64,000 bases of DNA from an uncultured Pseudomonadota bacterium (GCA_903884105.1 CAISDJ010000027.1:604-64603), one strand, 5' to 3'. Numbered from the stretch's first letter, positions 9,012-22,611 are shown. The notes: generated by a model not told the origin, from the sequence alone. Made by a program: numbers and translations.

Positions 9012-11009
9012 TTAGCCTGCCTTCAGGAGCGTTCCGAGCTCGGTATGCCCTAGGGCATCGGCAATGTCAGTTGCCGAGTTGCCATCGCTGTTGCGTAGCT
9101 GACGGTTGGCGCCTGCTGCGAGCAGCAACTTCACGATCGGAGTGTGACCGTTTCGTGTAGCGACAATCAGCGCCGTGTTGCCGAAGGCGCCGGTAGCGTT
9201 TGCAGTGGCACCTGCTGCCAACAGACGCTGTACCGTCGAGGCGTGGCCGTTTGCTGCAGCCAGCAGTAGCGGCGACACGCCGCCGCGTACGGCGGAGTTG
9301 GCGTTGACTCCATTGGTGAGCAACAAGGCGACGATTTCCGCCTGACCCTCGCTGGCCGCTGTTGCGAGCGGTGACACACCCTGCTTGTCCTCCTGGTTCC
9401 GGTTCTCCGGTCGGATCAACTGGCGGGCGGCCTCAATGAATCCGGTCTGCGCTGCGTACCACAATGCGGATCTGCCTTCGGCGTCAACCCGCGAAGGATC
9501 GCCGCGATGCTGCAGCAGGATGTCGACGAGGCTGAGCTGCCTCGAACGCGTCGCAATCATCAGGGCATCGCGACCCAGCTTGTCGCTAGCCCCGATATCG
9601 AACCCCGCATCGACCAGTGCCGTCAGAATCTCCGCTTGTTGCGCGCGAGCAGCCGCCAGTACCGGTGGCTCGACGCCATTCGCAGGCGCAGTCCTCGAGA
9701 CGGCTGGCAACAGCAATTGCACCATCTTGAGGTCGCCGTGGCGAATGGCCCAATCGAACCACTGCGGATCGATGGCTGCCGCACCAGCGCCGAGGCTGCG
9801 TACCAAAGGCAGCAACTTCTCTGCCGCGCTCACATTGCGTGACGTGACGGCGTTGCCGAGCGCCGTCCGCAGTTCCGTTGGCGTCCACGGCTCCGTTCGT
9901 CGTGTCGCAATCAGCGAGTTGAGCATGACGGTCGACGGGCGTGTGGCGGCCACGCCAAGGTCCGACCAGCCGGCGTACAGGTCTACTTTTGCTGCGCGAC
10001 GCAGCGGTACGGAGGGCGTTGAAGCTTCTTTCTTGGCGACAGTGGCCGTAATTCCGGCAGCGCGCAACGCCTGGATTGCCGGTATCGATTCGCCGCGCAG
10101 CGCCCAGTCCAGCGCAGTCCAGCCTTCGGTGTTCCGCGCGTTGAACTTCCGTGTGGCTGCCATTCCGCTGAGCAGTGACCTGATGTTGTCCACCCGCTCA
10201 CTCCGTGCTGCATACATGAGCGGAGTGTTGCCAACTGTATCTTGCGCATCGACGTTGGCGCCCGCCTTGACCAGGGCGGAGACAGACGACCCGCTTTCAG
10301 AAGCAGACGCGAGCATCAGGGCCGTGGTGCCAAACCGGTCCGCTCGCTTCGTGTCCGCTCGCTGGCGAAGCAATTCCTGGACCGCATTCCCCGCGCCGGC
10401 TTCAGCAGCGCGCATCAGCGCATCCCTGCCAAACTCGTTAGTGGCATTGGTCAACTCGGGACTGGCGAGGATTCCGAGCAGTGCGGCGTCATCACCATCC
10501 GCTGCCGACCAGAACGCGGCGAGTCTTGCTGAGGGCTCTTTCAGATCCGAAGCTGGCAGGAATTCAAGCGGTAAGCTGCCCCGCTTCAGCGAACGTGACG
10601 CGAGTTCATGGCCGGCCTGAGCGGCAGCCTCCAGCCAGCGCCGCGACGCCTGAACGTCGCGGGGTGCTTCTCGAAGGAAAGACAGGGCAAGGCTGTAGGA
10701 CGCGTTTGCGTGTTTTTGCTCGGCGGCAGCCAGCAGCAATGAACGTTCCCTGGTCACGTCGGCGGTCACGCCCAGACCTGCGCGATAGAGCGAAGCCAGC
10801 AAATATTGAGCATTGGCGTTGCCCTGCGCCGCAAGCGGCTCAAGTGAGCGCACGGCAATCTGGAAGTTCTTCAGTCGGATGGCCGCCAGCGCGGGCTCCA
10901 TGGCAGGCTGCGCTGTGTAGGGGCGCGCTGCAGTCTCCGCCGCGAAAGTAGGAGCGCAGCCCAACAGCCATACCAGCGTGCATGTACGGAGGCCGTTACG
11001 CAGTACCAT
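9012..11009 (-). CDS. Secreted Sel1-repeat plus ankyrin-repeat protein
   Basis: Signal-like N-terminus MVLRNGLRTCTLVWLLGCAPTFA. Sel1 motifs (GNANAQYLLASLYRAGLGV, ...SYSLALSF). Two blocks of ANK repeats (G.TALM.A...G....V..LL..GA..N). The ORF overlaps the 3' end of the upstream oxidoreductase gene. The start could be 11072 or 11009. Confidence 0.8.
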   Translation of the reverse strand: MVLRNGLRTCTLVWLLGCAPTFAAETAARPYTAQPAMEPALAAIRLKNFQIAVRSLEPLAAQGNANAQYLLASLYRAGLGVTADVTRERSLLLAAAEQKHANASYSLALSFLREAPRDVQASRRWLEAAAQAGHELASRSLKRGSLPLEFLPASDLKEPSARLAAFWSAADGDDAALLGILASPELTNATNEFGRDALMRAAEAGAGNAVQELLRQRADTKRADRFGTTALMLASASESGSSVSALVKAGANVDAQDTVGNTPLMYAARSERVDNIRSLLSGMAATRKFNARNTEGWTALDWALRGESIPAIQALRAAGITATVAKKEASTPSVPLRRAAKVDLYAGWSDLGVAATRPSTVMLNSLIATRRTEPWTPTELRTALGNAVTSRNVSAAEKLLPLVRSLGAGAAAIDPQWFDWAIRHGDLKMVQLLLPAVSRTAPANGVEPPVLAAARAQQAEILTALVDAGFDIGASDKLGRDALMIATRSRQLSLVDILLQHRGDPSRVDAEGRSALWYAAQTGFIEAARQLIRPENRNQEDKQGVSPLATAASEGQAEIVALLLTNGVNANSAVRGGVSPLLLAAANGHASTVQRLLAAGATANATGAFGNTALIVATRNGHTPIVKLLLAAGANRQLRNSDGNSATDIADALGHTELGTLLKAG

Positions 11010-12354
11010 ATTTGGTCTCCACCTCGACGCCAGCCTGGCGCAGGAAGTCATTGGGAAGGACGCCTCCTGCATTGACGATCACCGACTGATTCTCCACCTC
11101 GAACTTGTTGCCCTTATGGTCCAGCAGCACGCGGTCCGTCGCGATCTGCCTGACCGTTGAGCCAAGCCGCAAGTCGAGTTCGCCCGACTTTGCGGCAGCC
11201 GCAACGCGATCGCGGTTCCTGGGCTTGGCTCGATCAAAGGCATCGCCGCGATAAGATAGCGTAACCTGCGTTCCTCCCAGTTCGGCGATGCTCGCTGCTG
11301 CTTCCAGCGCGCTATCTCCGCCGCCAACCACCAGGACGTGCTGGCCCTTGTACTGCTCCGGATCGAGGAGGCGGTATACGACCTTCGGCAGGTCCTCGCC
11401 TGGGACTCCCAGCTTGCGCGGTGTGCCGCGACGGCCAATGGCGAGCAGCACATTCCTGGTGCGGTACTCACCCTTCGGGGTCTTGACAAGGAAGCCCTGT
11501 GCTCCCAGGTTCTGCACGCCTTCGACTCGTTCCTTGTAGTTGATCTGCACCCCCGATTTCTTCTCGATGCTCTGCCAGAACTCAAGCAGTTCCTCTTTCG
11601 TCGTGCGGGTGAAATTCACCTTGCCGACAATCGGCAGCGTGGCGGCCTGCGTCATGACGAGCTTGGCTCTGGGATACTGGAATACACAACCACCCAGCGA
11701 CTCTTGCTCCAGCGTAACAAAACGCAGGCGCTTGGACAGGGCGGAAAGCGACGCAGCGAAGCCCGCAGGGCCCGCGCCGACGATGACGAGATCCAGAAGA
11801 TCCGCGCCTCCGCGGGGGCGGTGCTTCTCGATCATTTCAACAACCTGTTTGCCCTGCTCGAGCGCGTTGCGGATCAGGCCCATGCCGCCAAGCTCGCCGG
11901 CCACAAAAATGCCTGGCACGTTGGTTTCAAAGTGCGGTGTCAACACCGGAATGTCGATGCCGCGCTTCTCGGTGCCGAATACGAGTGTGATGGCGCCCAC
12001 TGGGCAGGCGGTACGGCATGCGCCGTGGCCGATGCAGTCTGTTGGACTCACCAGCTCTGCCTTGCCATTGATGAGGCCAAGCACGTGGTGGTGAGGTTGC
12101 TCCGGACAGGCCGTCACGCACGAGCCGCAGCCGATGCAGAGCGAAGGATCGATGATCGGATGCAGAGACGGTGGCTCAATCAAGCCGGCGCTCAAGGATT
12201 CGAATTTCGCTTCTGCGCTCTTGCGCGCCGTGTGGGCGCGCTGCCGACCGAACCACAGCCACAGAAGCAGCATTGGCACGATGTAGATTGCGTATTCGAG
12301 CACACTCACTCCGAAAGTCTTGCTGAGGTCGTCGGTATCCATGCCTGCTGGCAC
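10996..12354 (-). CDS. Membrane-anchored 2x[4Fe-4S] ferredoxin-domain / FAD-NAD(P) pyridine nucleotide-disulfide-family oxidoreductase
   Basis: N-terminal TM helix YAIYIVPMLLLWLWFG. CIGCGSCVTACPE and CIGHGACRTACPVGAI cluster motifs. Dinucleotide folds VIVGAGPAGFAASL and VLVVGGGDSALEAA. Confidence 0.8.
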   Translation of the reverse strand: MPAGMDTDDLSKTFGVSVLEYAIYIVPMLLLWLWFGRQRAHTARKSAEAKFESLSAGLIEPPSLHPIIDPSLCIGCGSCVTACPEQPHHHVLGLINGKAELVSPTDCIGHGACRTACPVGAITLVFGTEKRGIDIPVLTPHFETNVPGIFVAGELGGMGLIRNALEQGKQVVEMIEKHRPRGGADLLDLVIVGAGPAGFAASLSALSKRLRFVTLEQESLGGCVFQYPRAKLVMTQAATLPIVGKVNFTRTTKEELLEFWQSIEKKSGVQINYKERVEGVQNLGAQGFLVKTPKGEYRTRNVLLAIGRRGTPRKLGVPGEDLPKVVYRLLDPEQYKGQHVLVVGGGDSALEAAASIAELGGTQVTLSYRGDAFDRAKPRNRDRVAAAAKSGELDLRLGSTVRQIATDRVLLDHKGNKFEVENQSVIVNAGGVLPNDFLRQAGVEVETKYGTA

Positions 12355-12832: not shown

Positions 12833-14086
12833 ATGTCATTGATGGCGACATTTTGGGTCATGGCCGGATTCGCGGCGGGCATTGCTGCCTGCTTCGTCCT
12901 GCTGCCGATTCTTCGTGGCCCTGCGGACGAGCCAGCCAAGAATGGCCGGCGGGTGTTGGTTGGCGCAGCGGCCGCGGTGGGACTGTTTGGCCTCGCCATC
13001 GCAATTTATCTGCAGTTAGGTCGGCCTGATTCACTGGACGCGAGCCTGGGAAGCGCTCCTCACGCCGGTGTTTCCTCTGGAGAGAGCGGGCAAGTGGGCT
13101 CGATGGAAGCGTCCATCCAGAAGCTTGCTGACAAGTTGGCAGCGGGCGGCGGCACCGATGCGGAATGGGATCTCTTGGCACAGTCCTATGAGTTCCTGGG
13201 GAACGCGGAGGCTGCAAGCGAGGCGAGGCAGCACAGGGTTCCAGGCGCAGTGCAGCCTGCGGCACAGCTGGTGAATGACCTCACTACCTATGAAGATAAA
13301 GTCGGGGTTGCGCCGAAGGACGTTGGGTCCTGGCTCGGGATGGCTGGGCTCAAGCGCACGCAACGTGACTTCGCGGGCGCCGTCGCAGCCTACGAAAAGG
13401 TGCGTGAACTCAAGGGTATGACGGCGGATTCATGGGCGGACTATGCAGATGCGCTGGCTTCCCAACCCGGCGGTTCGCTGCGAGGCAAGTCTGCAGAGGC
13501 GATAGAGCAGGCACTCAAGATGGATCGGAATCATCCCAAGGCCTTGTGGCTGAAGGCGACGCTCGCGATTCAGGAGAAGCGCTTCAGTGAGGCGACCCGC
13601 CTGTGGCGGCAACTGCGTGGCGTGTTGCCCGCCGACTCTCCTGACGTACGCATTATCGAGGCCAACATTGCGGAGGCCGAGGCCCTGGCGAAGGGTGGCA
13701 GTCCTGCGCAGGCTGCGGTGGCACCAGCGCCTGCTGTAGCCGTGCAGATTGAAGGTACAGTAGATCTGGATCCTGCCTTGCGATCCAAGGTCACTCAGGG
13801 TATGACGCTCTATATCTATGCGAAGGTGCCCAATGCGCCGGGTCCGCCGCTGGCTGTTTCACGGGTCGCCGCGGGTTCCTGGCCTGCGCGCTTCGTACTC
13901 GATGACACCCAGTCGATGTTGCCGGACCGTCGGCTGTCCGACTTCCCGCAGGTCATCATTGAAGCGCGGCTTTCAAAGAGCGGCCAGGCAATCGCAGCCG
14001 CAGGCGACCTGCAGGGGCGCAGCGGCACGGTCGACACACGGGCTGCCAGGCCCGTCAACCTGAAGATCGACCAGGTCATCGGCTAG
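12833..14086 (+). CDS. ccmI: CcmI/CycH-like c-type cytochrome biogenesis (apocytochrome chaperone) protein
   Basis: N-terminal TM helix MATFWVMAGFAAGIAACFVLLPILRG, TPR-like middle region and a CcmI-type C-terminal domain (LYIYAKVPNAPGPPLAVSRV...FVLDD). ATG at 12833; the TTG-12776 extension is unsupported. Confidence 0.72.
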   Translation: MSLMATFWVMAGFAAGIAACFVLLPILRGPADEPAKNGRRVLVGAAAAVGLFGLAIAIYLQLGRPDSLDASLGSAPHAGVSSGESGQVGSMEASIQKLADKLAAGGGTDAEWDLLAQSYEFLGNAEAASEARQHRVPGAVQPAAQLVNDLTTYEDKVGVAPKDVGSWLGMAGLKRTQRDFAGAVAAYEKVRELKGMTADSWADYADALASQPGGSLRGKSAEAIEQALKMDRNHPKALWLKATLAIQEKRFSEATRLWRQLRGVLPADSPDVRIIEANIAEAEALAKGGSPAQAAVAPAPAVAVQIEGTVDLDPALRSKVTQGMTLYIYAKVPNAPGPPLAVSRVAAGSWPARFVLDDTQSMLPDRRLSDFPQVIIEARLSKSGQAIAAAGDLQGRSGTVDTRAARPVNLKIDQVIG

Positions 14087-14093
14087 GCTCATC

Positions 14094-15050
14094 ATGCAAG
14101 TTTCACGGTACGATCTCGCCTCGCGCGGCGAAGCACTGACTCCTGATCCGGTTGGATCCTCCCCGGATGAACGGGTGGTGGCCAATCGACGCGGTGTCCA
14201 TGTCCGCTCTCGCTGGCAGCGGTGGATCACGTTCGACAGCGTGTTCCTGACAATCGCTGCCTTGGTCGTCCTTGTCGGCTGGCGGTTTCCCACGGAGCGA
14301 TTCATTTCGCCCGCCGCCGGGCTCGGCTATGCACTCGGGATCACGGGCGGCAGCCTGATGCTGATCCTGCTGCTCTATCCACTGCGCAAGCGGATCGCGT
14401 GGTTTTCGAAGTTGGGGTCAGTCAAGGCCTGGTTCCAGGTGCATATCGTTTTCGGCGTAGTAGGTCCGATCTGCGTGCTTTATCACTCCAACTTTTCGCT
14501 CGGTGCGACCAATAGCAACGTTGCGTTGGCGTTGATGCTCGTCATTCTCGGAAGCGGCCTGCTTGGGCGGTATTTCTACGCCAAGATTCACGATGGTCTG
14601 ACGGGCCACGAAACCAACTATGCGGACCTCAAGGCGAATGCAGAAAGGCTGCGGACCGTCACGCTGTCCGTCAAGTTCATGCCGGAGCTGCTGACTCGTC
14701 TCGCCAATGAGGAGAAGCACCTCGTGGAGAACGCGCAGCGGTGCCCGGCGCTATTGCGGCCTCTCTATCTGGCTTGGTGCAGCCTTCGGGGCAGGTTGCG
14801 GCTCAACAGGCACGTCCGCCTTGCGCTCACGGCAGCGGCGTCCCAGTCGCAACTGATCGATGCGCATCGGGATCGTCTGCAGGAAACGGCGTACGCATAC
14901 ATCGACAGGCGGATGTCCGCTACTCAAAGCGTCGCCGAATACCAGACCTATGCGAACTTGTTTTCGTGGTGGCATCTGCTCCACCTGCCGTTGTTCTTCC
15001 TGATGCTGGTTGCCGGCATCGTGCATGTGGTCGCCGTACACGCGTACTGA
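14094..15050 (+). CDS. Integral membrane protein, about 5 TM helices, His-rich (unknown family)
   Basis: Starts 7 nt after the ccmI-like gene. The TM helices contain histidines (WFQVHIVFGVVGPICVLYH; WWHLLHLPLFFLMLVAGIVHVVAVH). Confidence 0.6.
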   Translation: MQVSRYDLASRGEALTPDPVGSSPDERVVANRRGVHVRSRWQRWITFDSVFLTIAALVVLVGWRFPTERFISPAAGLGYALGITGGSLMLILLLYPLRKRIAWFSKLGSVKAWFQVHIVFGVVGPICVLYHSNFSLGATNSNVALALMLVILGSGLLGRYFYAKIHDGLTGHETNYADLKANAERLRTVTLSVKFMPELLTRLANEEKHLVENAQRCPALLRPLYLAWCSLRGRLRLNRHVRLALTAAASQSQLIDAHRDRLQETAYAYIDRRMSATQSVAEYQTYANLFSWWHLLHLPLFFLMLVAGIVHVVAVHAY

Positions 15051-15123
15051 CGCGGGGTGGTTCGATCATGAATGCAAGGACAGACGGTACAGCGCGGGCA
15101 ATGATTGCGGAGCAGTGGCGCTC

Positions 15124-16689
15124 GTGAGGGCAAGCTGGATCTACAGACTGGTGGGGGCCTTGGGAATGCTCGTTGGGGCAGTACAGGTTCATGCGGCTAG
15201 CCAGGCTCTCGAGCGTCTCTTGATGCCGGGACCGGTGTCTGCTGCCCATGCAAAGTATGAGACTGACTGCGCGCAGTGCCACGATTTCGCAAACCGGCCG
15301 GGCCAGGCCCAGTTATGCGCAACCTGTCATGAGCCGGTTCGAGACGACATTCGAGCGGGAAAGGGGTTGCATGGCCGCCTACCGAACGCCGCCATGCTGC
15401 AATGTCGCGGATGCCATACCGAGCACAAGGGGCGCGACACCGATATCGTCAAGTTTGTGGCGCTTGAGTTTGATCACTCGAAGACGGACTTCGAGCTGGC
15501 GGACGCGCATGCCACCGTGCCCTGCGCAAGCTGCCACCAAGCCGGAAAGCCCTATCGAGAGGCTGCGGGTCAGTGCAGCGGATGCCACCTGAAGGACGAG
15601 CCACATGAGGGTCGATTGGGTAAGGACTGCGCGAGCTGTCATGATTCTGTGGCATGGAGCCGGACTCGCTACGACCACGGCAAGACGAAGTTCCCACTGG
15701 AGAACAAGCACGCAGAAGTCCCTTGCGCTGCCTGCCACTTTGGCAATCGCTACGACGGGACTCCTCAGGCCTGCGCCTCATGCCACTCGCCGGATGATGT
15801 GCATCGCGGAGCCCGCGGTACCGACTGCGCGTCGTGCCATACCACCAAGGAATGGCAGACGGCGCGCTTCAACCACGAGAAGGAGACGGGCTTCGCCTTG
15901 CGGGGTGCACACGCAGACGCCGCCTGCGCGAGTTGCCACAAGACCGGTCGTTATGAAGACAAAGTGCCAAAGGACTGTCACGGATGCCATCTCGCCGAAG
16001 ACACCCATGCCGGCCGCCTTGGGGAGAAGTGCGGTGATTGCCACACGAATGATGCGTTCAAGCCAGCGAAGTTCGACCACGACAAGGATACCAAGTACCT
16101 CCTTGAGGGAGAGCACAAACAGGTTTCCTGCCACGCATGCCATACCGCTCCGGTCGCGCAGCAGTCGTTGCAGTCCAACTGCTCGTCCTGCCATGCGGCG
16201 AACGACGTTCATGCCGCAAAGCTCGGGACACAATGCGAGTCCTGTCATGCGCCGGCCGGGTGGCGCTTTGATGTCCGCTTCGACCATGACCTCAGTGATT
16301 TCCAGCTTCTCGGGCAGCACGCTGCGGTCCCCTGCGAGCAGTGCCATCTGACACAGTCATTCAAGGATACGGCGTCCGGGTGCAACGACTGTCACGCGAA
16401 GACTGACGTCCACAAAGGCAGTCTTGGCAAGGAATGCGCCAGCTGCCATTCCCCGAACGGATGGGGGATCTGGGAGTTTGATCATGGCAAGCAGACCGGG
16501 TTTGGCCTGACCGGCGCGCACGGGAAGCTCACGTGCGCAGGTTGCCATCGCCAGCCGCCAGATGTCGTCAAGCTGTCACAGGACTGTGTGGCGTGCCACC
16601 AGGACGATGACGCTCACTTCGGTGATTTCGGACGGCAGTGCGAGCGCTGCCACGTCACCCTGTCATTCAAGCAAGTGCGTATCCGTTAG
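15124..16689 (+). CDS. Multihaem c-type cytochrome, 21 CXXCH motifs (seven c7-like trihaem modules)
   Basis: I counted 21 CXXCH motifs by eye. The GTG at 15124 gives a Sec-type signal, VRASWIYRLVGALGMLVGAVQVHAAS. The upstream part of ORF 15010 overlaps the preceding gene. Confidence 0.9.
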   Translation: MRASWIYRLVGALGMLVGAVQVHAASQALERLLMPGPVSAAHAKYETDCAQCHDFANRPGQAQLCATCHEPVRDDIRAGKGLHGRLPNAAMLQCRGCHTEHKGRDTDIVKFVALEFDHSKTDFELADAHATVPCASCHQAGKPYREAAGQCSGCHLKDEPHEGRLGKDCASCHDSVAWSRTRYDHGKTKFPLENKHAEVPCAACHFGNRYDGTPQACASCHSPDDVHRGARGTDCASCHTTKEWQTARFNHEKETGFALRGAHADAACASCHKTGRYEDKVPKDCHGCHLAEDTHAGRLGEKCGDCHTNDAFKPAKFDHDKDTKYLLEGEHKQVSCHACHTAPVAQQSLQSNCSSCHAANDVHAAKLGTQCESCHAPAGWRFDVRFDHDLSDFQLLGQHAAVPCEQCHLTQSFKDTASGCNDCHAKTDVHKGSLGKECASCHSPNGWGIWEFDHGKQTGFGLTGAHGKLTCAGCHRQPPDVVKLSQDCVACHQDDDAHFGDFGRQCERCHVTLSFKQVRIR

Positions 16690-16697
16690 AGGCAGTC

Positions 16698-19586
16698 ATG
16701 AAAGTCCTAACACGCTTGCTTTCTTTCCTGACGGCGCCGGGCTATCCGATGTTCGCTGTACTGTGCCTGATGCTGGGCAGCGTTTTCTTTTCTGGAGTGG
16801 AAGCACAGGTTGCGGCGCCCGGTCGAGTCGCTGCCTCGTTCGATCATCTCAGCACCGGTTTCGAGCTGACGGGTGCCCACCTTCAGGTGCGATGCGAGTC
16901 CTGCCACGTCGACGGCGTTTTCAAGGGGACCCAGGCGAACTGCGCCGCGTGCCATACGCCGGGCACGAGAGTGGGCGCGACGAGCAAGCCGTCGAATCAC
17001 ATCCTGACGACGGAACGTTGCGCGGATTGCCATACGACTGTTGCCTGGAATACCGCCGAGCGTTTCGATCACTCCCAGGTCATTGGGTCTTGCAGCAACT
17101 GCCACAATAACGTTCAAGTGGTTGGCAAGCCGGCGAACCACATTCCCACGAATCTGGACTGCAATTCGTGCCACAACGTCGGTTCGTGGGCGGTTGTGCG
17201 GTTCGATCACACCGGCGTAGTCGGCAATTGCGCCAGTTGCCACAACGGAACCCGCGCTACCGGCAAGGAAGCGAACCATATTCCGGTCGGCGATGATTGC
17301 GAGACTTGTCATACGCCAAGTGGCTGGCGCCCGGCAACGTTCAGCCACGTTGGCGTCACTGGCAATTGTGCAAGCTGTCATGACGGCGTACGCAGCACCG
17401 GCAAGGATCGCGCGCATATCCAGTCCAGCATGGTCTGCGAATCGTGCCATGTTCCGACTGCCTGGGCCCCCGTCACTCGTGTCGACCACACGCAGGTTCT
17501 CGGCAGCTGCGTTGTCTGTCACAACGGGACCAGCGTCACTTCAAGTGGCGTCAGGATCACCGGGAAGCCCGGTGATCACATTCGCTCAACCGATACCTGC
17601 GATGCTTGCCACGGCACGATGGTCTGGAGACCGGCAACGCGGGTGGACCATGCCAACGTCACTGGCAGTTGTGCGTCGTGCCATAACGGTACCGCTGCGA
17701 CCGGCAAGACGTTGGGTGTCCATATCGCATCTACGGACGCGTGTGAGACCTGTCATGGAACCACCGTCTGGCAACCCACTTCGCGCGTCGATCACAACCA
17801 GCTCGTTTCCGCGAACTGCGCCACCTGTCATGCACGCCCGATTGGTATCGGTGCCGTGCAGGCAACGGTCAAATCCGCTACCCACGTCGCCAGCGACAAC
17901 CAGTGCGCAACCTGTCATTCAACGCTGAGCTGGCGTCCTGCGAGTTTCGCTCACACTGGTATCACGAGCGGCTGCGCCAGCTGCCACAACAATGTGACCG
18001 CGACCGGCAAGTCAGGCGGCCACATCAATTCGACGGCGATCTGCGAGTCATGTCACGTGTCCACCTCCGTGTGGGCGCCGGTTGCGCCTGCACAGGTCAA
18101 TCACACGCAGGTCATTGGGTCTTGCAATACCTGCCATAACGGTTCAGTGAGAACTTCTTCAGGGACCCCGATCCAGGGCAAAGGGACGGGCCATATCCTG
18201 TCGACCGCCTCCTGTGATGCCTGCCACGCCATCGGATCATGGACGCCGACAGTGCGGGTCGACCACGGGCAGGTGCTCGGAAGCTGCTTTACGTGTCACA
18301 ACGGTTCGACACGGACTTCCGCAGGCGCATTGATTACCGGCAAGTCGCTCACCCACATTCAGAGTTCCAATGCCTGCGAGAACTGCCATTCGCCCAGTTC
18401 CTGGGCGACCAACGGCCGTCCGGACCACAGTACTTTCATCGGCAACTGCGCCACCTGCCACGGTGTATCGGCTTCGGGGAAGGGTCTCAATCACATCCAG
18501 TCAACCGTTGCCTGCGATAACTGCCATACGGTCTCTTCGTGGCTGCCGGCAGAGGCGGTCGATCACACGCAAGTGCTTGGAACCTGCACGAGCTGCCACA
18601 GCGGCTCGGTTCACACGAACTCGGGTGCGTTGATCCAGGGCAAGGGGACGAGCCACATAACAACCGCCCTGGAGTGCGACTCGTGCCACACGACCTCCAC
18701 TTGGGTTGTCGCGAGATTCGATCACACGAAGACCGCGCTGTCCTGCTTCTCGTGCCACGACAATACGCATGTGGCAGGCAAGACCGCCTCGCACATCACG
18801 ACCACGAACGCCTGCGAGACCTGCCACGTGAGCACGGCGTGGAAACCCGCCACCCGTGTTGACCATACCCAGGTGACGGGAACCTGCTTCTCATGCCACA
18901 ACGGATCGACTGCACGCGGCAAGTCGCAAACGCATATCGCGTCCGACAACACCTGCAGTACCTGCCACACGACGGTGGCATGGACCCCGGCCCAGTTCGA
19001 TCATCGCAATGTGGTTGCGGGGACTTGCGGTACCTGTCACAACGGCGTGAGTGCGACTGGCAAGCCGAACAATCACCTGCCGACAACGCAGTCCTGCGAC
19101 GCATGCCATGTCACGCTGGCATGGAAGCCGGCCACCTTCAGTCATGCCGGCATTACGACAGGCTGCAGCTCGTGCCACAACAACACGGTGACGGCAGGCA
19201 AGTCGACCAGACACATGACCACGTCCCGCGAATGCGTTATCTGCCACTCGACCACTGCGTGGACTCCTTTGACGTTCAGGCACACATCGACGGAGTACCC
19301 GGGTGACCACCGCGTTGCGTTGACCTGTACCGCCTCCGGGTGTCATTCGACCAACACGGATGCTGCCGTATGGCGAACCCCGTCATTGCGGGGCTCCTGT
19401 GCCGGGTGCCACTCAGGCAACTTCAAGGCGGGCAGTCACCCGAAAGTCAGCGGCGTGTCCAACTACACGGCGAGCGAGCTTCGAAATTGTTCGGGCGCTT
19501 GCCACACGTACACGAATGCGACGTTGACGACGATTTCCAAGACCCGGAATGGCCCACAGCACCGGGTAACGAGCAACGGCTTCTGA
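16698..19586 (+). CDS. Giant multihaem c-type cytochrome, 34 CXXCH plus two variant motifs (about 963 aa)
   Basis: ATG at 16698 lies 8 nt after the upstream stop and has a GAGG SD. Hydrophobic signal ...MFAVLCLMLGSVFFSGVEAQ. I counted 34 canonical CXXCH motifs plus CTASGCH and CSGACH. Confidence 0.9.
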   Translation: MKVLTRLLSFLTAPGYPMFAVLCLMLGSVFFSGVEAQVAAPGRVAASFDHLSTGFELTGAHLQVRCESCHVDGVFKGTQANCAACHTPGTRVGATSKPSNHILTTERCADCHTTVAWNTAERFDHSQVIGSCSNCHNNVQVVGKPANHIPTNLDCNSCHNVGSWAVVRFDHTGVVGNCASCHNGTRATGKEANHIPVGDDCETCHTPSGWRPATFSHVGVTGNCASCHDGVRSTGKDRAHIQSSMVCESCHVPTAWAPVTRVDHTQVLGSCVVCHNGTSVTSSGVRITGKPGDHIRSTDTCDACHGTMVWRPATRVDHANVTGSCASCHNGTAATGKTLGVHIASTDACETCHGTTVWQPTSRVDHNQLVSANCATCHARPIGIGAVQATVKSATHVASDNQCATCHSTLSWRPASFAHTGITSGCASCHNNVTATGKSGGHINSTAICESCHVSTSVWAPVAPAQVNHTQVIGSCNTCHNGSVRTSSGTPIQGKGTGHILSTASCDACHAIGSWTPTVRVDHGQVLGSCFTCHNGSTRTSAGALITGKSLTHIQSSNACENCHSPSSWATNGRPDHSTFIGNCATCHGVSASGKGLNHIQSTVACDNCHTVSSWLPAEAVDHTQVLGTCTSCHSGSVHTNSGALIQGKGTSHITTALECDSCHTTSTWVVARFDHTKTALSCFSCHDNTHVAGKTASHITTTNACETCHVSTAWKPATRVDHTQVTGTCFSCHNGSTARGKSQTHIASDNTCSTCHTTVAWTPAQFDHRNVVAGTCGTCHNGVSATGKPNNHLPTTQSCDACHVTLAWKPATFSHAGITTGCSSCHNNTVTAGKSTRHMTTSRECVICHSTTAWTPLTFRHTSTEYPGDHRVALTCTASGCHSTNTDAAVWRTPSLRGSCAGCHSGNFKAGSHPKVSGVSNYTASELRNCSGACHTYTNATLTTISKTRNGPQHRVTSNGF

Positions 19587-21970
19587 TGCGCAGAGGAGTA
19601 CTGAAGGCGCTGGTCGGGTGGTTGGGGTTGGGTCTGCTATCCCAGCCCGCGTCAGCCCAGTTTGCTCCGCGGTTGCTCGAAGCAGCAGATATCACGACGG
19701 CTGACACCCACCTGGATGTCGTATTGTTGTTCAGCTGCCAAGTCCGCTATTTGTCACACTTGCCGGCAGCCGAGAGCAATGTCGTCGACGTTCGGCTGGG
19801 TGTGGGCACTGATTGCCTCCAGGGCGGGAGCATCATCGGCAGCGAATCGCTGACGCCCCCCGCCGGGCAAGACGTCCTCAAGTCGATCGAGTTGATCCCC
19901 TTGCTCGCGAGCGACGTGGACCTGCGGATTACCTGGGGCACGCGGGAGCGCTACCTGATCGCTCCGACCTCTGATCAACGTGGGCTGCGGATCCGGGTGC
20001 TGCGGGACGAGCGGGGTGTGGATCGCAGCAGGGTATTGATTACCGAGCCCGAGGGCACGCTGGCTTCCGGCTACGCCATCAACCTCGAGTCGGCGACCGA
20101 ACCCTTCACGCCTGCCGCTGCAGCCGATGTGCAGCGTATCCTTGGCCAGGCAAGCTATGTTTCGAAGGTGGAGATCGAAAGTCAGACTTGGTATCGAATG
20201 CGCATCGGTCCATTCGCCACGCGTGCGGAGGCCGACAGGCAGCTGTTGCGTGCTCAGCAAGCGTATCCGCGAGCCTGGTTGGGGATCGCAGATGAGGTTC
20301 TGCACGAGGACGACGTCGTTACCACGACTACGACGGATGACATTCCCTCAGGTTCCGGACTCGTGCCTCCAACGGGTTTGTTTGCGATCGCACAGGCGCA
20401 GCTCAGGCGGCGCCAGTACGACGCGGCGATTGCTTCTTTCACAAGGTATCTCGTGGACGCGACGGGGGATACGCGAGGGACGGCTCGCGAGATGTTGGGT
20501 CTCGCCCAGGAGCGAAGCGGGCACCTTGCATTGGCCAAGGCCGAATATGAAGCCTACCTGCGTGAATTTCGCTCGGGTCGTGGGGCGGACCGTGTGCGAC
20601 GCCGCCTCAATGCGTTGCGGACGGCATCGGGCGCCAACCGGTCGCAGGAGGGTACCGGCGTTGATGAAGAACTCGCCTGGCGCTATTTCGGCGGCGTGTC
20701 GCAGTACTACAGATACGACGATAATCTCCGTACGATCGGCCCCCTCGAGGCGAAGTTCTCCAGCCAGAACGCGCTGCTGACCGATGCCGACTTCGTTGCC
20801 CGCAAGCGGGGCGAGTCGTTTGATTCGCTGGCGCGCTTCAATGGTGGCTACATCAAGGACATGTTGACCAAGGGTCCTGGGGACAGCTTCCGCCTCAGCA
20901 GCGCCTACTACGAAATGAGCGATGTGGAGCGGGGTTGGATGGCCCGCTTCGGTCGGCAGGCGCGCAGCAGCGACGGCATTCTCGGCACATTCGACGGCGC
21001 ATTGGGCAGCTACCGCCTTCAGCCCCATCTCACGTTCAATCTGGCAGCGGGGTTCCCCATCGAGTCCACCCGCAGCGGATTCAACAGCGACCGCCAGTTC
21101 CAGTCGCTCGCCGCCAATTTCGGTGTTCTGAGCGGTGGCTGGGAGCCATCCCTGTATGTGATCAACCAGACGTATCTCGGGGAGACGGATCGCCAGGCCG
21201 TGGGGGCGGAATTGCGGTACTTCAAGCCCGGACGAACCCTCATCGGTTTCGTCGATTACGACCAGCATTTCGGCGAGATGAACAACGTGATCGTGGTGGG
21301 TACGGTGCAGTTGCCAGCAATGTGGACGATGACGCTGGATGTCGAGCAGCGCAGGACGCCGATGCTCATGACCCGAAATGCGTTGATCGGGCAGGCCGTG
21401 CAGACGCTGGATCAATTGCTGGATCTGTTCACGAGCGAAGAGGTCAGGCAGCTGGCTCTCGACCGCACGGCGCCGTCCAGGTTGGCGAGCTTTTCGCTGT
21501 CGAGGCCCCTTGGCCAGCGTTTTCAGTTCGCACTGTATGCTGCGTCGACGGACATGGGCGCTACGCTGCCATCCGGAGGCGCCGAGGGCATTCCGGACCC
21601 GGGCGGTGACCTCTCACTGTCGGCGCAACTTCTGGCCATGAGCCTGTTCCAATCCGGCGATATCAACATCATGGCGGTTCGTTACCAGACGAATGATTTC
21701 GCCAAGACCGCCTCGATTGGCATCAGTTCACGATTGCCGCTCTATGGGGCCTGGCGGATTGGTCCGCAGCTGCGATTGGACCGCCGCGAGAATATCGCGG
21801 ATCAGTCGGTCCAGATGCTGCTGGCGCCGACGTTGCGACTCGGGCTCCAGCTCAAGAAGGTCATTTTCGAGCTTGAAGCCGGAGCCGAGCTGACGAATCG
21901 CACGGGATTCCCGGACGATGACAAGACGCGCCGCTATTTTTTCAGCCTGGGCTATCGATGGAACTTCTGA
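19586..21970 (+). CDS. Outer-membrane-type beta-barrel protein with N-terminal AMIN-like, SPOR and TPR regions
   Basis: TGATG overlap with the cytochrome gene. Signal MRRGVLKALVGWLGLGLLSQPASAQ. SPOR-like segment GYAINLES...WYRMRIGPFATRAEADRQLLRAQQAYPRAW. The C-terminal half (about 450 aa) has an alternating pattern and ends ...YFFSLGYRWNF, an OMP-type terminal Phe. Confidence 0.68.
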   Translation: MRRGVLKALVGWLGLGLLSQPASAQFAPRLLEAADITTADTHLDVVLLFSCQVRYLSHLPAAESNVVDVRLGVGTDCLQGGSIIGSESLTPPAGQDVLKSIELIPLLASDVDLRITWGTRERYLIAPTSDQRGLRIRVLRDERGVDRSRVLITEPEGTLASGYAINLESATEPFTPAAAADVQRILGQASYVSKVEIESQTWYRMRIGPFATRAEADRQLLRAQQAYPRAWLGIADEVLHEDDVVTTTTTDDIPSGSGLVPPTGLFAIAQAQLRRRQYDAAIASFTRYLVDATGDTRGTAREMLGLAQERSGHLALAKAEYEAYLREFRSGRGADRVRRRLNALRTASGANRSQEGTGVDEELAWRYFGGVSQYYRYDDNLRTIGPLEAKFSSQNALLTDADFVARKRGESFDSLARFNGGYIKDMLTKGPGDSFRLSSAYYEMSDVERGWMARFGRQARSSDGILGTFDGALGSYRLQPHLTFNLAAGFPIESTRSGFNSDRQFQSLAANFGVLSGGWEPSLYVINQTYLGETDRQAVGAELRYFKPGRTLIGFVDYDQHFGEMNNVIVVGTVQLPAMWTMTLDVEQRRTPMLMTRNALIGQAVQTLDQLLDLFTSEEVRQLALDRTAPSRLASFSLSRPLGQRFQFALYAASTDMGATLPSGGAEGIPDPGGDLSLSAQLLAMSLFQSGDINIMAVRYQTNDFAKTASIGISSRLPLYGAWRIGPQLRLDRRENIADQSVQMLLAPTLRLGLQLKKVIFELEAGAELTNRTGFPDDDKTRRYFFSLGYRWNF

Positions 21971-22611
21971 GACTCCCTGCCCGTAGCGGTCCGGGTTCGA
22001 GGCTGGCGCTGTGGGCCCTCCTGCTTGTTGCGACCTGCTTGCCGCAGTCCGGCTGCGTCGCTGTGCGCGCCGGTGCGCGTCAATACCAGGACGAAAGCAC
22101 CGCGGTCACGATCACTGTCGCGACGGATCCCGTGGTGCTGGCCAGGGAAGTGTCGATGCTCGCGGTCAATGCGCGTGACTATGTCAGCTTGTTCCCGCTG
22201 GAGGTGAATCGCTCCGGTCAGCGTCGCTACTACTTCTATGGCTACAGCTGGTCCACCATTGATCGACGCCAGACCCCAGGAGCGACAGTCCCGAGTGACG
22301 ATGAGTTGACCCTGCAGGCGGACGACAGAACGGTTGTGCTGCGGATGTCTTCGCGGGAGCTGCAGAATGCCGGGTTGCGTACTTTGCCCGTAGCGCCTCC
22401 TGCCTCTGGTGCGCGGCCGCTGTTGTTTCCCACGGATCGCGCCACGCTGCTGTTCGTGGGGACGGCCCGCGCCTTGTCCGCGCAGTTCGCGGCGACGTCC
22501 GGCGCTGCTTCCGTGGAACAGTTTCGGCAGTGGAGCGCTCCCGAACCCGGATTCAAGGGATTCTTCGAGCGGATAGGATCTGCGCAGCCGACCCGAACGC
22601 CATCAAGGTAG
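21958..22611 (+). CDS. Hypothetical lipoprotein
   Basis: 13-nt overlap with the barrel gene. Signal plus lipobox ...LWALLLVATCLPQSGC. No family was recognised. Confidence 0.55.
   Translation: MELLRLPARSGPGSRLALWALLLVATCLPQSGCVAVRAGARQYQDESTAVTITVATDPVVLAREVSMLAVNARDYVSLFPLEVNRSGQRRYYFYGYSWSTIDRRQTPGATVPSDDELTLQADDRTVVLRMSSRELQNAGLRTLPVAPPASGARPLLFPTDRATLLFVGTARALSAQFAATSGAASVEQFRQWSAPEPGFKGFFERIGSAQPTRTPSR

What the first reader, a model, noticed from the sequence alone, without database searches (positions are those of the whole stretch)
15124..16689. 21-haem cytochrome built from seven tandem c7-like trihaem modules
The 21 CXXCH motifs fall into a repeating unit of about 70 aa: F(D/N)H..T.F.L.(G/D)(A/K)H....C..CH...(9-12)...C..CH..D.H.G.LG..C..CH....W. 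Each unit carries three CXXCH motifs plus three extra His residues, enough for bis-His ligation of every haem. This is the layout of Geobacter trihaem c7 (PpcA) and its polymers such as the dodecahaem GSU1996, which has four c7-type domains. Seven such domains in one chain would form a haem wire long enough to cross a periplasm. The Sec signal and lack of a lipobox suggest a soluble periplasmic protein.
Basis: partly seen in the sequence, partly recalled or inferred. Interest (0 to 1): 0.6.

Follow-up and report, generated by a model that had tools for sequence, protein, structure and literature searches.

The report
21-haem periplasmic cytochrome of PCC3 cluster
This gene encodes a 21-haem periplasmic cytochrome made of repeated three-haem units; it is a typical member of the "PCC3" porin-cytochrome gene clusters, published in 2017 but never tested experimentally and thought to wire the inner membrane to the cell surface.

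Summary
ORF 15124-16689 (+) encodes 521 aa with 21 CXXCH motifs (0.3 expected by shuffling), a Sec-type signal and no lipobox. It has a diverged N-terminal three-haem head and six 66-70 aa repeats. In 78 orthologues all 21 motif His and exactly 21 other His are invariant, which fits bis-His ligation of every haem.

The c7 idea is partly right. One axial His sits in a different place than in PpcA. The GSU1996-type NCBIfam model is not met, and the head is c3-like.

The gene is the periplasmic cytochrome of a PCC3 cluster (He et al. 2017): a 5-TM membrane protein with two WX3HX13H motifs, this 21-haem protein, a 34-haem cytochrome and an outer-membrane protein. That paper already reports 21 as the median haem number and seven 66-aa repeats in one such protein. 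Function is still untested.

Synteny is conserved in 80 Steroidobacteraceae-type loci, together with a CcmI paralogue, an FeS-flavoprotein and an ankyrin protein.

The scan has flagged PCC3 before on other DNA (85 notes, at least 69 genomes). Verdict: a new member of a known kind, of low to moderate interest.

The parts
15124..16689 (+). Gene for the 521-aa, 21-CXXCH periplasmic multihaem cytochrome (GTG start; stop at 16687-16689)
   Evidence: Pfam PF14522/PF14537/PF02085
15124..15198 (+). Sec-type signal peptide of about 24-26 residues, with no lipobox Cys
   Evidence: Read directly from the sequence; homologues align with an AxA-type site just before the invariant E-T-L-L-M-P-G motif
15220..15441 (+). 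N-terminal three-haem head (residues 33-106), class III cytochrome c3-like; haems 1-3, invariant M34, H42, H83 and H101
   Evidence: PF02085 at 37.4 bits and PF14537 at 28.7 bits; PDB 1gyo E 1.2e-5
15469..16686 (+). Six tandem 66-70 aa repeats (residues 116-521), each FDH..H..CXXCH..CXXCH..H..CXXCH; haems 4-21
   Evidence: AF2 model of residues 116-316 has mean pLDDT 87.3
15589..16608 (+). Five full c7-type frames (residues 156-495), shifted by one haem from the repeats as cut above
   Evidence: Each frame hits PF14522 over profile positions 5-67 of 67 at 25.7-34.0 bits, cut-off 24.8; hhalign against PpcA
14094..15050 (+). PCC3 inner-membrane protein, 318 aa, 5 hydrophobic segments, two WX3HX13H motifs (W113, W293) and SGLLG154; a putative di-haem-b electron gate
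   Evidence: the motifs are those of He et al. 2017 Fig. 8; present in 80 of 80 related loci
16698..19586 (+). Putative extracellular multihaem cytochrome with 34 CXXCH (plus one CX3CH and one CX4CH), rich in Thr/Ser/Ala/Gly
   Evidence: present in 80 of 80 loci
19586..21970 (+). 794-aa outer-membrane protein (signal peptide, SPOR and TPR-like regions, C-terminal part ending YRWNF); the presumed PCC3 porin
   Evidence: present in 61 of 80 loci, the rest mostly cut by contig ends
12833..14086 (+). CcmI/CycH-like apocytochrome chaperone paralogue heading the operon
   Evidence: PF23892 and PF23914; 73 of 80 loci; a second copy sits beside CcmE on contig C40
21958..22611 (+). Conserved 217-aa ORF overlapping the porin stop; no family match
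   Evidence: (41 loci)
10996..12354 (-). Divergent membrane-anchored 2x[4Fe-4S] plus FAD/NAD(P) flavoprotein; a conserved partner
   Evidence: Pfam and NCBIfam; 70 of 80 loci, always divergent, 63-88% identity in the 25 loci whose values were printed
9012..11072 (-). Sel1/ankyrin-repeat protein downstream of the flavoprotein; a conserved partner
   Evidence: 70 of 80 loci

Best explanation
The gene encodes the periplasmic multihaem cytochrome of a PCC3-type porin-cytochrome system. After Sec export and signal cleavage, the Ccm system, probably helped by the operon's own CcmI paralogue, attaches 21 c-type haems. There is about one haem per 24 residues.

The chain is a c3-like three-haem head followed by six c3/c7-type three-haem repeats. 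All 21 haems are probably low-spin bis-His. My proposed assignment is that each conserved free His ligates the next unassigned CXXCH haem within its repeat, and that H101 or M34 completes the head.

The result should be a single-polypeptide haem wire, by analogy with the GSU1996 c7 polymer. It would carry electrons across the periplasm between the 5-TM inner-membrane protein, which has NOX/FRD-like WX3HX13H motifs, and the 34-haem cytochrome held at the outer membrane by the large OM protein.

The direction of flow is unknown. The genome lacks RuBisCO, and a divergent NAD(P)H-type FeS-flavoprotein is conserved next to the cluster. I therefore lean towards outward electron export to Fe(III), Mn(IV), humics or other external acceptors, rather than lithoautotrophic Fe(II) oxidation.

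Shown here: the sequence features, conservation, family matches and synteny. Inferred: haem occupancy, the ligand assignment, the wire length, the partner contacts and the direction of flow.
For: - 21 CXXCH plus 21 invariant extra His.
- Pfam c7, c3 and class III matches.
- The repeat profile's best PDB hit is the GSU1996 dodecahaem, and hhalign against PpcA gives E 2e-4.
- Haem counts among the top 120 homologues are 21 (98 proteins), 24, 27, 30, 33, 36 and 39, that is steps of three; single proteins have 35 and 37.
- 77 of 80 genome loci have exactly 21.
- The gene order IMP, 21-haem, 34-haem, OM protein matches ES-1 Slit_1446-1449.
- The IMP motifs match He et al. 2017.
- He et al. report a median of 21 and 34 haems, and seven 66-aa RADAR repeats in a 21-haem PCC3 periplasmic cytochrome.
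- Hoover et al. 2023 report 21, 24 and 27 haems and long, linear AF2 models that could span the periplasm.
- Synteny in 80 loci: IMP 80, extracellular cytochrome 80, CcmI 73, porin 61; flavoprotein and ankyrin protein 70 each.
- No RuBisCO in a genome that is 99.3% complete.
Against: - No PCC3 component has been tested biochemically or genetically.
- In S. lithotrophicus ES-1 proteomics the PCC3 proteins rank low, and the extracellular cytochrome was not detected.
- The full-length AF2 model was poor (pLDDT 58.8), and Foldseek found no structural neighbour even for the good fragment model. Neither the fold nor the length was verified here.
- The OM protein has no porin family match.
- I could not compare the protein directly with a named PCC3 reference sequence.
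- The conserved M34 gives 22 candidate distal ligands for 21 haems, so the ligand map for the head is ambiguous.
Confidence: 0.75

Rival explanations
1. It acts as a periplasmic electron store (capacitor), as proposed for the Geobacter c7 polymers GSU1996, GSU0592 and GSU2210. The 21 haems would buffer electrons when external partners are absent, without forming a fixed bridge.
For: It resembles c7 polymers. The capacitor role is the one proposed for GSU1996 in the literature (PMC10138318), and Hoover et al. also mention storage.
Against: It is strictly syntenic and tightly packed with a membrane protein, a second giant cytochrome and an OM protein. The haem number is held at 21 in 77 of 80 loci, which suggests a length constraint rather than a capacity. 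The two roles do not exclude each other.
Confidence: 0.12
2. It is an MtrA-like barrel-inserted cytochrome. The chain would sit mainly inside the OM barrel and reach only part of the way into the periplasm, with other carriers linking it to the inner membrane.
For: In MtrCAB the periplasmic decahaem MtrA is sheathed by the porin (my own knowledge of the family). The genome also has an MtrA/MtoA-like decahaem elsewhere.
Against: Twenty-one haems are about twice what is needed to cross an outer membrane. No small soluble cytochrome is encoded in the cluster. The IMP is conserved immediately upstream in 80 of 80 loci.
Confidence: 0.1
3. It is a catalytic multihaem enzyme of the nitrite, hydroxylamine, sulfite or tetrathionate reductase type, rather than a wire.
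For: Weak, sub-threshold NCBIfam matches to HmcA and the nine-haem cytochrome.
Against: There is one invariant His for every haem and no CXXCK or other open-site motif. The protein has only 24 residues per haem, no catalytic domain, and all enzyme-family scores are far below their cut-offs.
Confidence: 0.03

Closest known systems
PCC3 periplasmic multihaem cytochrome (He, Barco, Emerson & Chan/Roden 2017, PMC5566968; e.g. S. lithotrophicus ES-1 Slit_1447 and the 21-haem protein of the Riftia endosymbiont; Hoover et al. 2023, PMC9900912)
   Same: It has the same four-gene context and order and the same IMP motifs. The 21 haems equal the family median, and the ratio is about 24-26 residues per haem. 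It has seven repeats of about 66 aa, one weak and six strong, and family haem counts rise in steps of three.
   Different: The host is an uncultured Steroidobacteraceae-type gammaproteobacterium without RuBisCO, not a known iron oxidiser. In this lineage the cluster also carries a CcmI paralogue, a 217-aa ORF and a divergent FeS-flavoprotein/ankyrin pair, none of which is among the four PCC3 genes as He et al. define them in the passages read. I could not align it directly to a named reference.
Geobacter sulfurreducens c7 polymers GSU1996 (12 haems, PDB 3OV0), GSU0592 and GSU2210 (27 haems)
   Same: One polypeptide made of tandem three-haem class III units, predicted to be periplasmic. GSU1996 is the best PDB hit of the repeat profile, and both fall in Pfam PF14522.
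   Different: TIGR04257 (nanowire_3heme) is not met, at 23 bits against a cut-off of 40. GSU1996 has one His-Met haem per domain, whereas here a conserved His occupies that position. GSU1996 has HxxH before haem I, whereas here there is one His there and an FDH His after it (alignment). GSU1996 is not encoded with a porin.
Trihaem cytochrome c7 PpcA (PDB 1OS6/2LDO)
   Same: The spacing of the haem I/III/IV motifs, the GF..AH element before haem III, and a comparable PF14522 score (31.0 for PpcA against 25.7-34.0 per frame).
   Different: Only hhalign probability 46.5%, and the repeat profile against PpcA gives E 0.36. There is an 8-residue insertion carrying W....FDH, and one axial His is relocated.
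MtrA/MtoA decahaem of MtrCAB/MtoAB porin-cytochrome complexes
   Same: A periplasmic multihaem partner of an OM barrel and an outer cytochrome, with a low residue-to-haem ratio.
   Different: No significant homology of this protein to DmsE/MtrA models. It has 21 rather than 10 haems and a different repeat architecture.

Membership tests
PCC3 porin-cytochrome cluster (He et al. 2017) | [quoted passage not shown] | tested here: met
   Genes at 14094-15050, 15124-16689, 16698-19586 and 19586-21970, with junctions of +73, +8 and -1 nt. The order is the same as Slit_1446-1449. Conserved in 80 loci.
PCC3 porin-cytochrome cluster (He et al. 2017) | IMP of about 300 aa with 5 TM helices, WX3HX13H on TM3 and TM5, and SGXXG on TM4 | tested here: met
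   318 aa; W113FQVH-x13-H, W293HLLH-x13-H and SGLLG at 154; five hydrophobic segments.
PCC3 porin-cytochrome cluster (He et al. 2017) | Periplasmic MHC with about 21 haems (21/24/27), about 26 aa per haem, and internal repeats of about 66 aa | tested here: met
   21 CXXCH, 24.8 aa per haem, and a 1+6 repeat pattern. The paper's Supplementary Fig. 1 shows 7 repeats of 66 aa in a 21-haem example.
PCC3 porin-cytochrome cluster (He et al. 2017) | Extracellular MHC with very many haems (median 34), rich in T/S/A/G and repetitive | tested here: met
   34 CXXCH; T 13.5%, S 10.5%, A 9.7%, G 8.5%.
PCC3 porin-cytochrome cluster (He et al. 2017) | Large beta-barrel porin | tested here: inconclusive
   It has a signal peptide and a C-terminal ...YRWNF, and it is conserved. 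Only SPOR and TPR matches were found, there is no porin family hit, and no structure was run.
PCC3 porin-cytochrome cluster (He et al. 2017) | Sequence homology to a named reference (e.g. Slit_1447) | not testable with these tools
   Reference sequences cannot be fetched by name. The genome handles are anonymous, and the genome-contig scan returned only the 80 closest loci.
Pfam PF14522 Cytochrome_C7 (clan of class III multihaem cytochromes) | Score above the gathering cut-off of 24.8 bits | tested here: met
   Whole protein 105.1 bits, E 1.7e-30. Five single frames score 25.7-34.0 bits end to end, and the frame at residues 78-158 scores 24.2, just below.
Cytochrome c7 sensu stricto (PpcA type) | Axial ligand layout of H-x2-H before haem I and one His before haem III, with all three haems bis-His | tested here: not met
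   There is one His (DDxH) before the haem I-type motif, and the second is FDH after it. The His before haem III is kept. Bis-His ligation is plausible but was not measured.
NCBIfam TIGR04257 nanowire_3heme (GSU1996-type c7 domain) | Score above the cut-off of 40 bits | tested here: not met
   23.2 bits, E 5.9e-5.
GSU1996-type c7 polymer | One His-Met haem (haem IV) per domain | tested here: not met
   No conserved Met in the repeats. The position aligned to GSU1996 'MLDMEKGKSC' holds an invariant His.
Pfam PF02085 Class III cytochrome c (c3), N-terminal head only | Score above the cut-off of 22.9 bits | tested here: met
   Residues 26-115 score 37.4 bits over profile positions 20-90 of 101. 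PDB 1gyo gives E 1.2e-5.

The most novel reading that the evidence does not exclude
PCC3 periplasmic cytochromes could be a structurally distinct, all-bis-His subclass of c7 polymer. One axial His has moved to an inserted W....FDH element, and the haem number (21 in most lineages) would be set by the width of the periplasm. In heterotrophic soil Steroidobacteraceae the wire would be fed from cytoplasmic NAD(P)H through a split NOX-like module, made of a membrane-anchored FeS-flavoprotein and a di-haem-b IMP. It would then export electrons rather than oxidise iron.
Probability: 0.3. Interest if true: 0.55.

Novelty: new member of a known kind. Interest (0 to 1): 0.28.

Why it matters
PCC3 clusters are widespread. 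Here, 57 of 151 sampled genomes of this family carry the cytochrome, and thousands of metagenomic homologues exist. None has been tested.

If the 21-haem protein really spans the periplasm as one polypeptide, it would be a different solution from the relays of small carriers used by Shewanella and Geobacter. It would also mark a large, unrecognised capacity for extracellular electron transfer in common soil Gammaproteobacteria.

This particular gene adds little beyond another well-preserved example. What it does add is a cleaner description of the repeat frame and the invariant ligand set, which could guide expression constructs, for example fragments cut at c7 frames.

Tried and rejected
- Full-length AlphaFold2 on 40 homologues gave pLDDT 58.8 and pTM 0.29. 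Foldseek against the PDB found nothing.
- A three-repeat fragment with a stacked 148-row alignment gave a good model (pLDDT 87.3). Foldseek again found only noise, best E 3.1. Haem-rich, coil-dominated folds appear to be invisible to it, and the coordinates are not exposed. I could therefore not measure length, haem spacing or His pairing.
- My first pooled alignment (A3) came out staggered rather than stacked and was discarded.
- The full-length profile against PDB sequences gave no c7 or GSU1996 hit, only c3 and 16-haem hits near E 1e-3. The repeat-level profile was needed, and its single stretches are individually weak (i-E of 0.13 or worse), so I rely on the Pfam frame test instead.
- A catalytic-enzyme reading was rejected, because every haem has a conserved sixth ligand and no enzyme family passes its cut-off.
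- A recent DNA-level duplication or an assembly artefact was rejected, because there is no tandem DNA repeat and orthologous units are more alike than paralogous ones.

Full report
**1. Observation**

Translating 15124-16689 (+) gives 521 residues with 21 CXXCH motifs, 42 Cys and 45 His. Shuffling the same residues gives 0.29 motifs on average and never more than 4.

The gene caller's product in the public collection starts at ATG 15025 (554 aa, P0001). About 520-aa homologues align from the GTG at 15124, which has a GGAG 11 nt upstream. The N-terminus is a standard Sec signal ending VHA/AS. The first Cys is residue 49, so there is no lipobox.

**2. Repeat anatomy**

Cutting at F/Y-D/N-H gives a 115-aa first segment with three CXXCH, followed by six units of 66-70 aa. 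Each unit reads FDH-x10-H-x4-CXXCH-x12-CXXCH-x5-H-x7-CXXCH.

In 40 homologues and in 78 orthologues taken from genome loci, every CXXCH is invariant. Exactly 21 other His are also 100% conserved: three in the head (H42, H83, H101) and three in each repeat. The only other conserved candidate ligand is M34, in an invariant E-T-L-L-M-P-G motif just after the signal peptide. It leaves 22 candidate ligands for 21 haems in the head region, which I could not resolve.

The repeats are old. Units within the protein are 41% identical on average, whereas the same unit in other genomes is 58% identical. No DNA tandem repeat is detectable.

**3. Is it c7-like?**

At family level, yes. PF14522 (Cytochrome_C7) scores 105 bits (E 1.7e-30, five stretches), alongside PF14537 and PF02085.

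I tested the frame explicitly. Five fragments cut as [DDxH-CXXCH][FDH..H..CXXCH..CXXCH] each match PF14522 from profile position 5 to 67 at 30.7, 26.5, 34.0, 25.7 and 27.6 bits. The cut-off is 24.8, and authentic PpcA, whose sequence I checked against PDB 1OS6, scores 31.0. hhalign of a three-repeat profile against PpcA picks the same frame: PpcA residues 25-70 align to fragment residues 118-175, E 2e-4, probability 46.5%.

Every homologue starts H[c][c]H[c] and ends HH[c][c]H[c]. The simplest reading is a circularly offset c7-type unit.

There are differences from true c7:
- Only one His precedes the haem I-type motif, where PpcA has H17 and H20. The other His is the FDH His, in an 8-residue insertion after that motif.
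- A profile of the repeat finds the GSU1996 dodecahaem (3ov0) as its best PDB hit (E 3.4e-7). Each stretch is individually weak, and PpcA itself scores only E 0.36.
- NCBIfam's GSU1996-type domain TIGR04257 is not met, at 23.2 bits against 40.
- GSU1996 has one His-Met haem per domain (PMC10138318), while this protein has an invariant His at that position.
- The head (residues 26-115) is class III c3-like: PF02085 at 37.4 bits, and PDB 1gyo at E 1.2e-5.

My ligand assignment is an inference, not a measurement. I propose that each free His serves the next unassigned CXXCH within its repeat.

**4. Structure attempts**

Full-length AF2 was poor, with pLDDT 58.8. A three-repeat fragment, with orthologous and paralogous triplets stacked in one alignment, gave pLDDT 87.3 and pTM 0.54.

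The claim that the protein is long enough to cross a periplasm therefore rests on analogy. From memory, GSU1996 is about 12 nm for 12 haems. In addition, Hoover et al. 2023 describe AF2 models of the PCC3 cytochromes as long and mostly linear, and say that the 21-27-haem periplasmic cytochrome could span the periplasm.

**5. What it is**

The neighbours identify it:
- Upstream is a 318-aa membrane protein with five hydrophobic segments, two WX3HX13H motifs and an SGXXG motif.
- Downstream is a 34-CXXCH cytochrome rich in Thr/Ser/Ala/Gly.
- After that comes a 794-aa outer-membrane protein with a signal peptide, SPOR and TPR-like regions, ending YRWNF.

This is the "PCC3" cluster of He et al. 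2017. That paper defines the four genes and the same IMP motifs, and gives median haem numbers of 34 (extracellular) and 21 (periplasmic). Its Supplementary Figure 1 already shows seven 66-aa repeats, one weak and six strong, in the 21-haem periplasmic cytochrome of the Riftia endosymbiont. In S. lithotrophicus ES-1 the gene order Slit_1446-1449 is the same as here. Hoover et al. report 21, 24 or 27 haems. Among my top 120 homologues the counts are 21 (98 proteins), then 24, 27, 30, 33, 36 and 39, with single proteins at 35 and 37. Papers up to 2025 state that PCC3 is functionally untested.

**6. Wider context**

A scan of species-representative genomes returned 80 loci, nearly all labelled Steroidobacteraceae or Gammaproteobacteria MAGs. 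Of these, 77 encode exactly 21 CXXCH. Synteny is strong: IMP in 80 of 80, the extracellular cytochrome in 80 of 80, the CcmI paralogue in 73, the OM protein in 61 and a 217-aa ORF in 41. Most shortfalls are due to contig ends.

Earlier notes of this scan gave me a lead, which I tested. A divergent, membrane-anchored 2x[4Fe-4S] FAD/NAD(P) flavoprotein and a Sel1/ankyrin protein are present in 70 of 80 loci, always on the opposite strand. In the 25 loci whose values were printed, the flavoprotein is 63-88% identical, more conserved than the cytochrome.

Within the window's own family, 57 of 151 sampled genomes (46 of 114 high-quality genomes, 25 of 40 genera) have the cytochrome, so it is a patchy accessory trait.

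The window's genome is 3.73 Mb and 99.3% complete. It has no RuBisCO large subunit and only four ORFs with three or more CXXCH: this pair, an MtrA/MtoA-like decahaem and a five-haem protein. It has two CcmI copies, one of them beside CcmE in the housekeeping ccm locus.

**7. Mechanism**

The best-supported model is a single-chain periplasmic haem wire. It would link a di-haem-b-like inner-membrane gate to the outer-membrane and extracellular cytochrome, and would be matured with the help of a dedicated CcmI.

He et al. noted that the IMP motifs resemble the ferric-reductase/NOX transmembrane domain. Taken together with the conserved NAD(P)H-type flavoprotein and the lack of RuBisCO, I lean towards outward electron export in this organism. 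The direction remains inference.

The rivals are a capacitor role, an MtrA-like role limited to the barrel, and an enzyme role. The first two are not excluded. The enzyme reading is unlikely, because every haem has a conserved sixth ligand.

**8. Verdict**

The c7-polymer interpretation is partly supported and refined. The object is a typical member of a published, still untested family that this scan has met many times on other DNA (85 notes in at least 69 genomes). It is a new member of a known kind, with interest about 0.28.

Noticed in passing
window 12833-14086 (+); genome contig C40:72303-72623 (-): The operon starts with a CcmI/CycH paralogue that is conserved in 73 of 80 related loci. 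The genome's second CcmI lies about 4 kb from CcmE in the housekeeping ccm locus. This looks like a dedicated apocytochrome chaperone for the 55-plus haem attachments of the cluster, and it is not among the four PCC3 genes as He et al. define them in the passages read.
   Followed up: partly
window 9012-12354 (-): A divergent pair is present in 70 of 80 related loci, always in this orientation: a flavoprotein with an N-terminal TM helix, 2x[4Fe-4S] and a TrxR/YpdA-like FAD/NAD(P) domain, and a Sel1/ankyrin-repeat protein. In the 25 loci whose values were printed, the flavoprotein is 63-88% identical, more conserved than the cytochromes.
   Followed up: partly
window 15223-15225 (M34) within 15211-15231: An invariant E-T-L-L-M-P-G motif lies directly after the signal peptide, and M34 is 99% conserved. 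It could be a Met ligand for haem 1 or a docking element for the inner-membrane protein. With it there are 22 candidate distal ligands for 21 haems.
   Followed up: no
window 19586-21970 (+): The presumed porin carries a SPOR (peptidoglycan-binding) domain and TPR-like repeats ahead of its C-terminal OM region. It matches no porin family in Pfam or NCBIfam. Its start ATG overlaps the stop of the 34-haem gene (ATGA).
   Followed up: partly
window 21958-22611 (+): A 217-aa ORF overlaps the porin stop by 13 nt. It has no family match but is found downstream of the porin in 41 related loci.
   Followed up: partly
genome contig C74:11230-12222 (-), outside the window: A 10-CXXCH, roughly 330-aa ORF looks like an MtrA/MtoA/DmsE-type decahaem. 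The organism may therefore have a second porin-cytochrome conduit of a different type.
   Followed up: no
window 15025-15123: The public gene call for this protein (554 aa, P0001) starts at ATG 15025 and overlaps the IMP gene by 26 nt. Homologue N-termini favour GTG 15124, so the database entry probably has a 33-residue false extension.
   Followed up: partly
whole genome G000: No RuBisCO large subunit was found in a genome that is 99.3% complete. This argues against a classical autotrophic iron-oxidiser lifestyle for this PCC3 carrier.
   Followed up: partly
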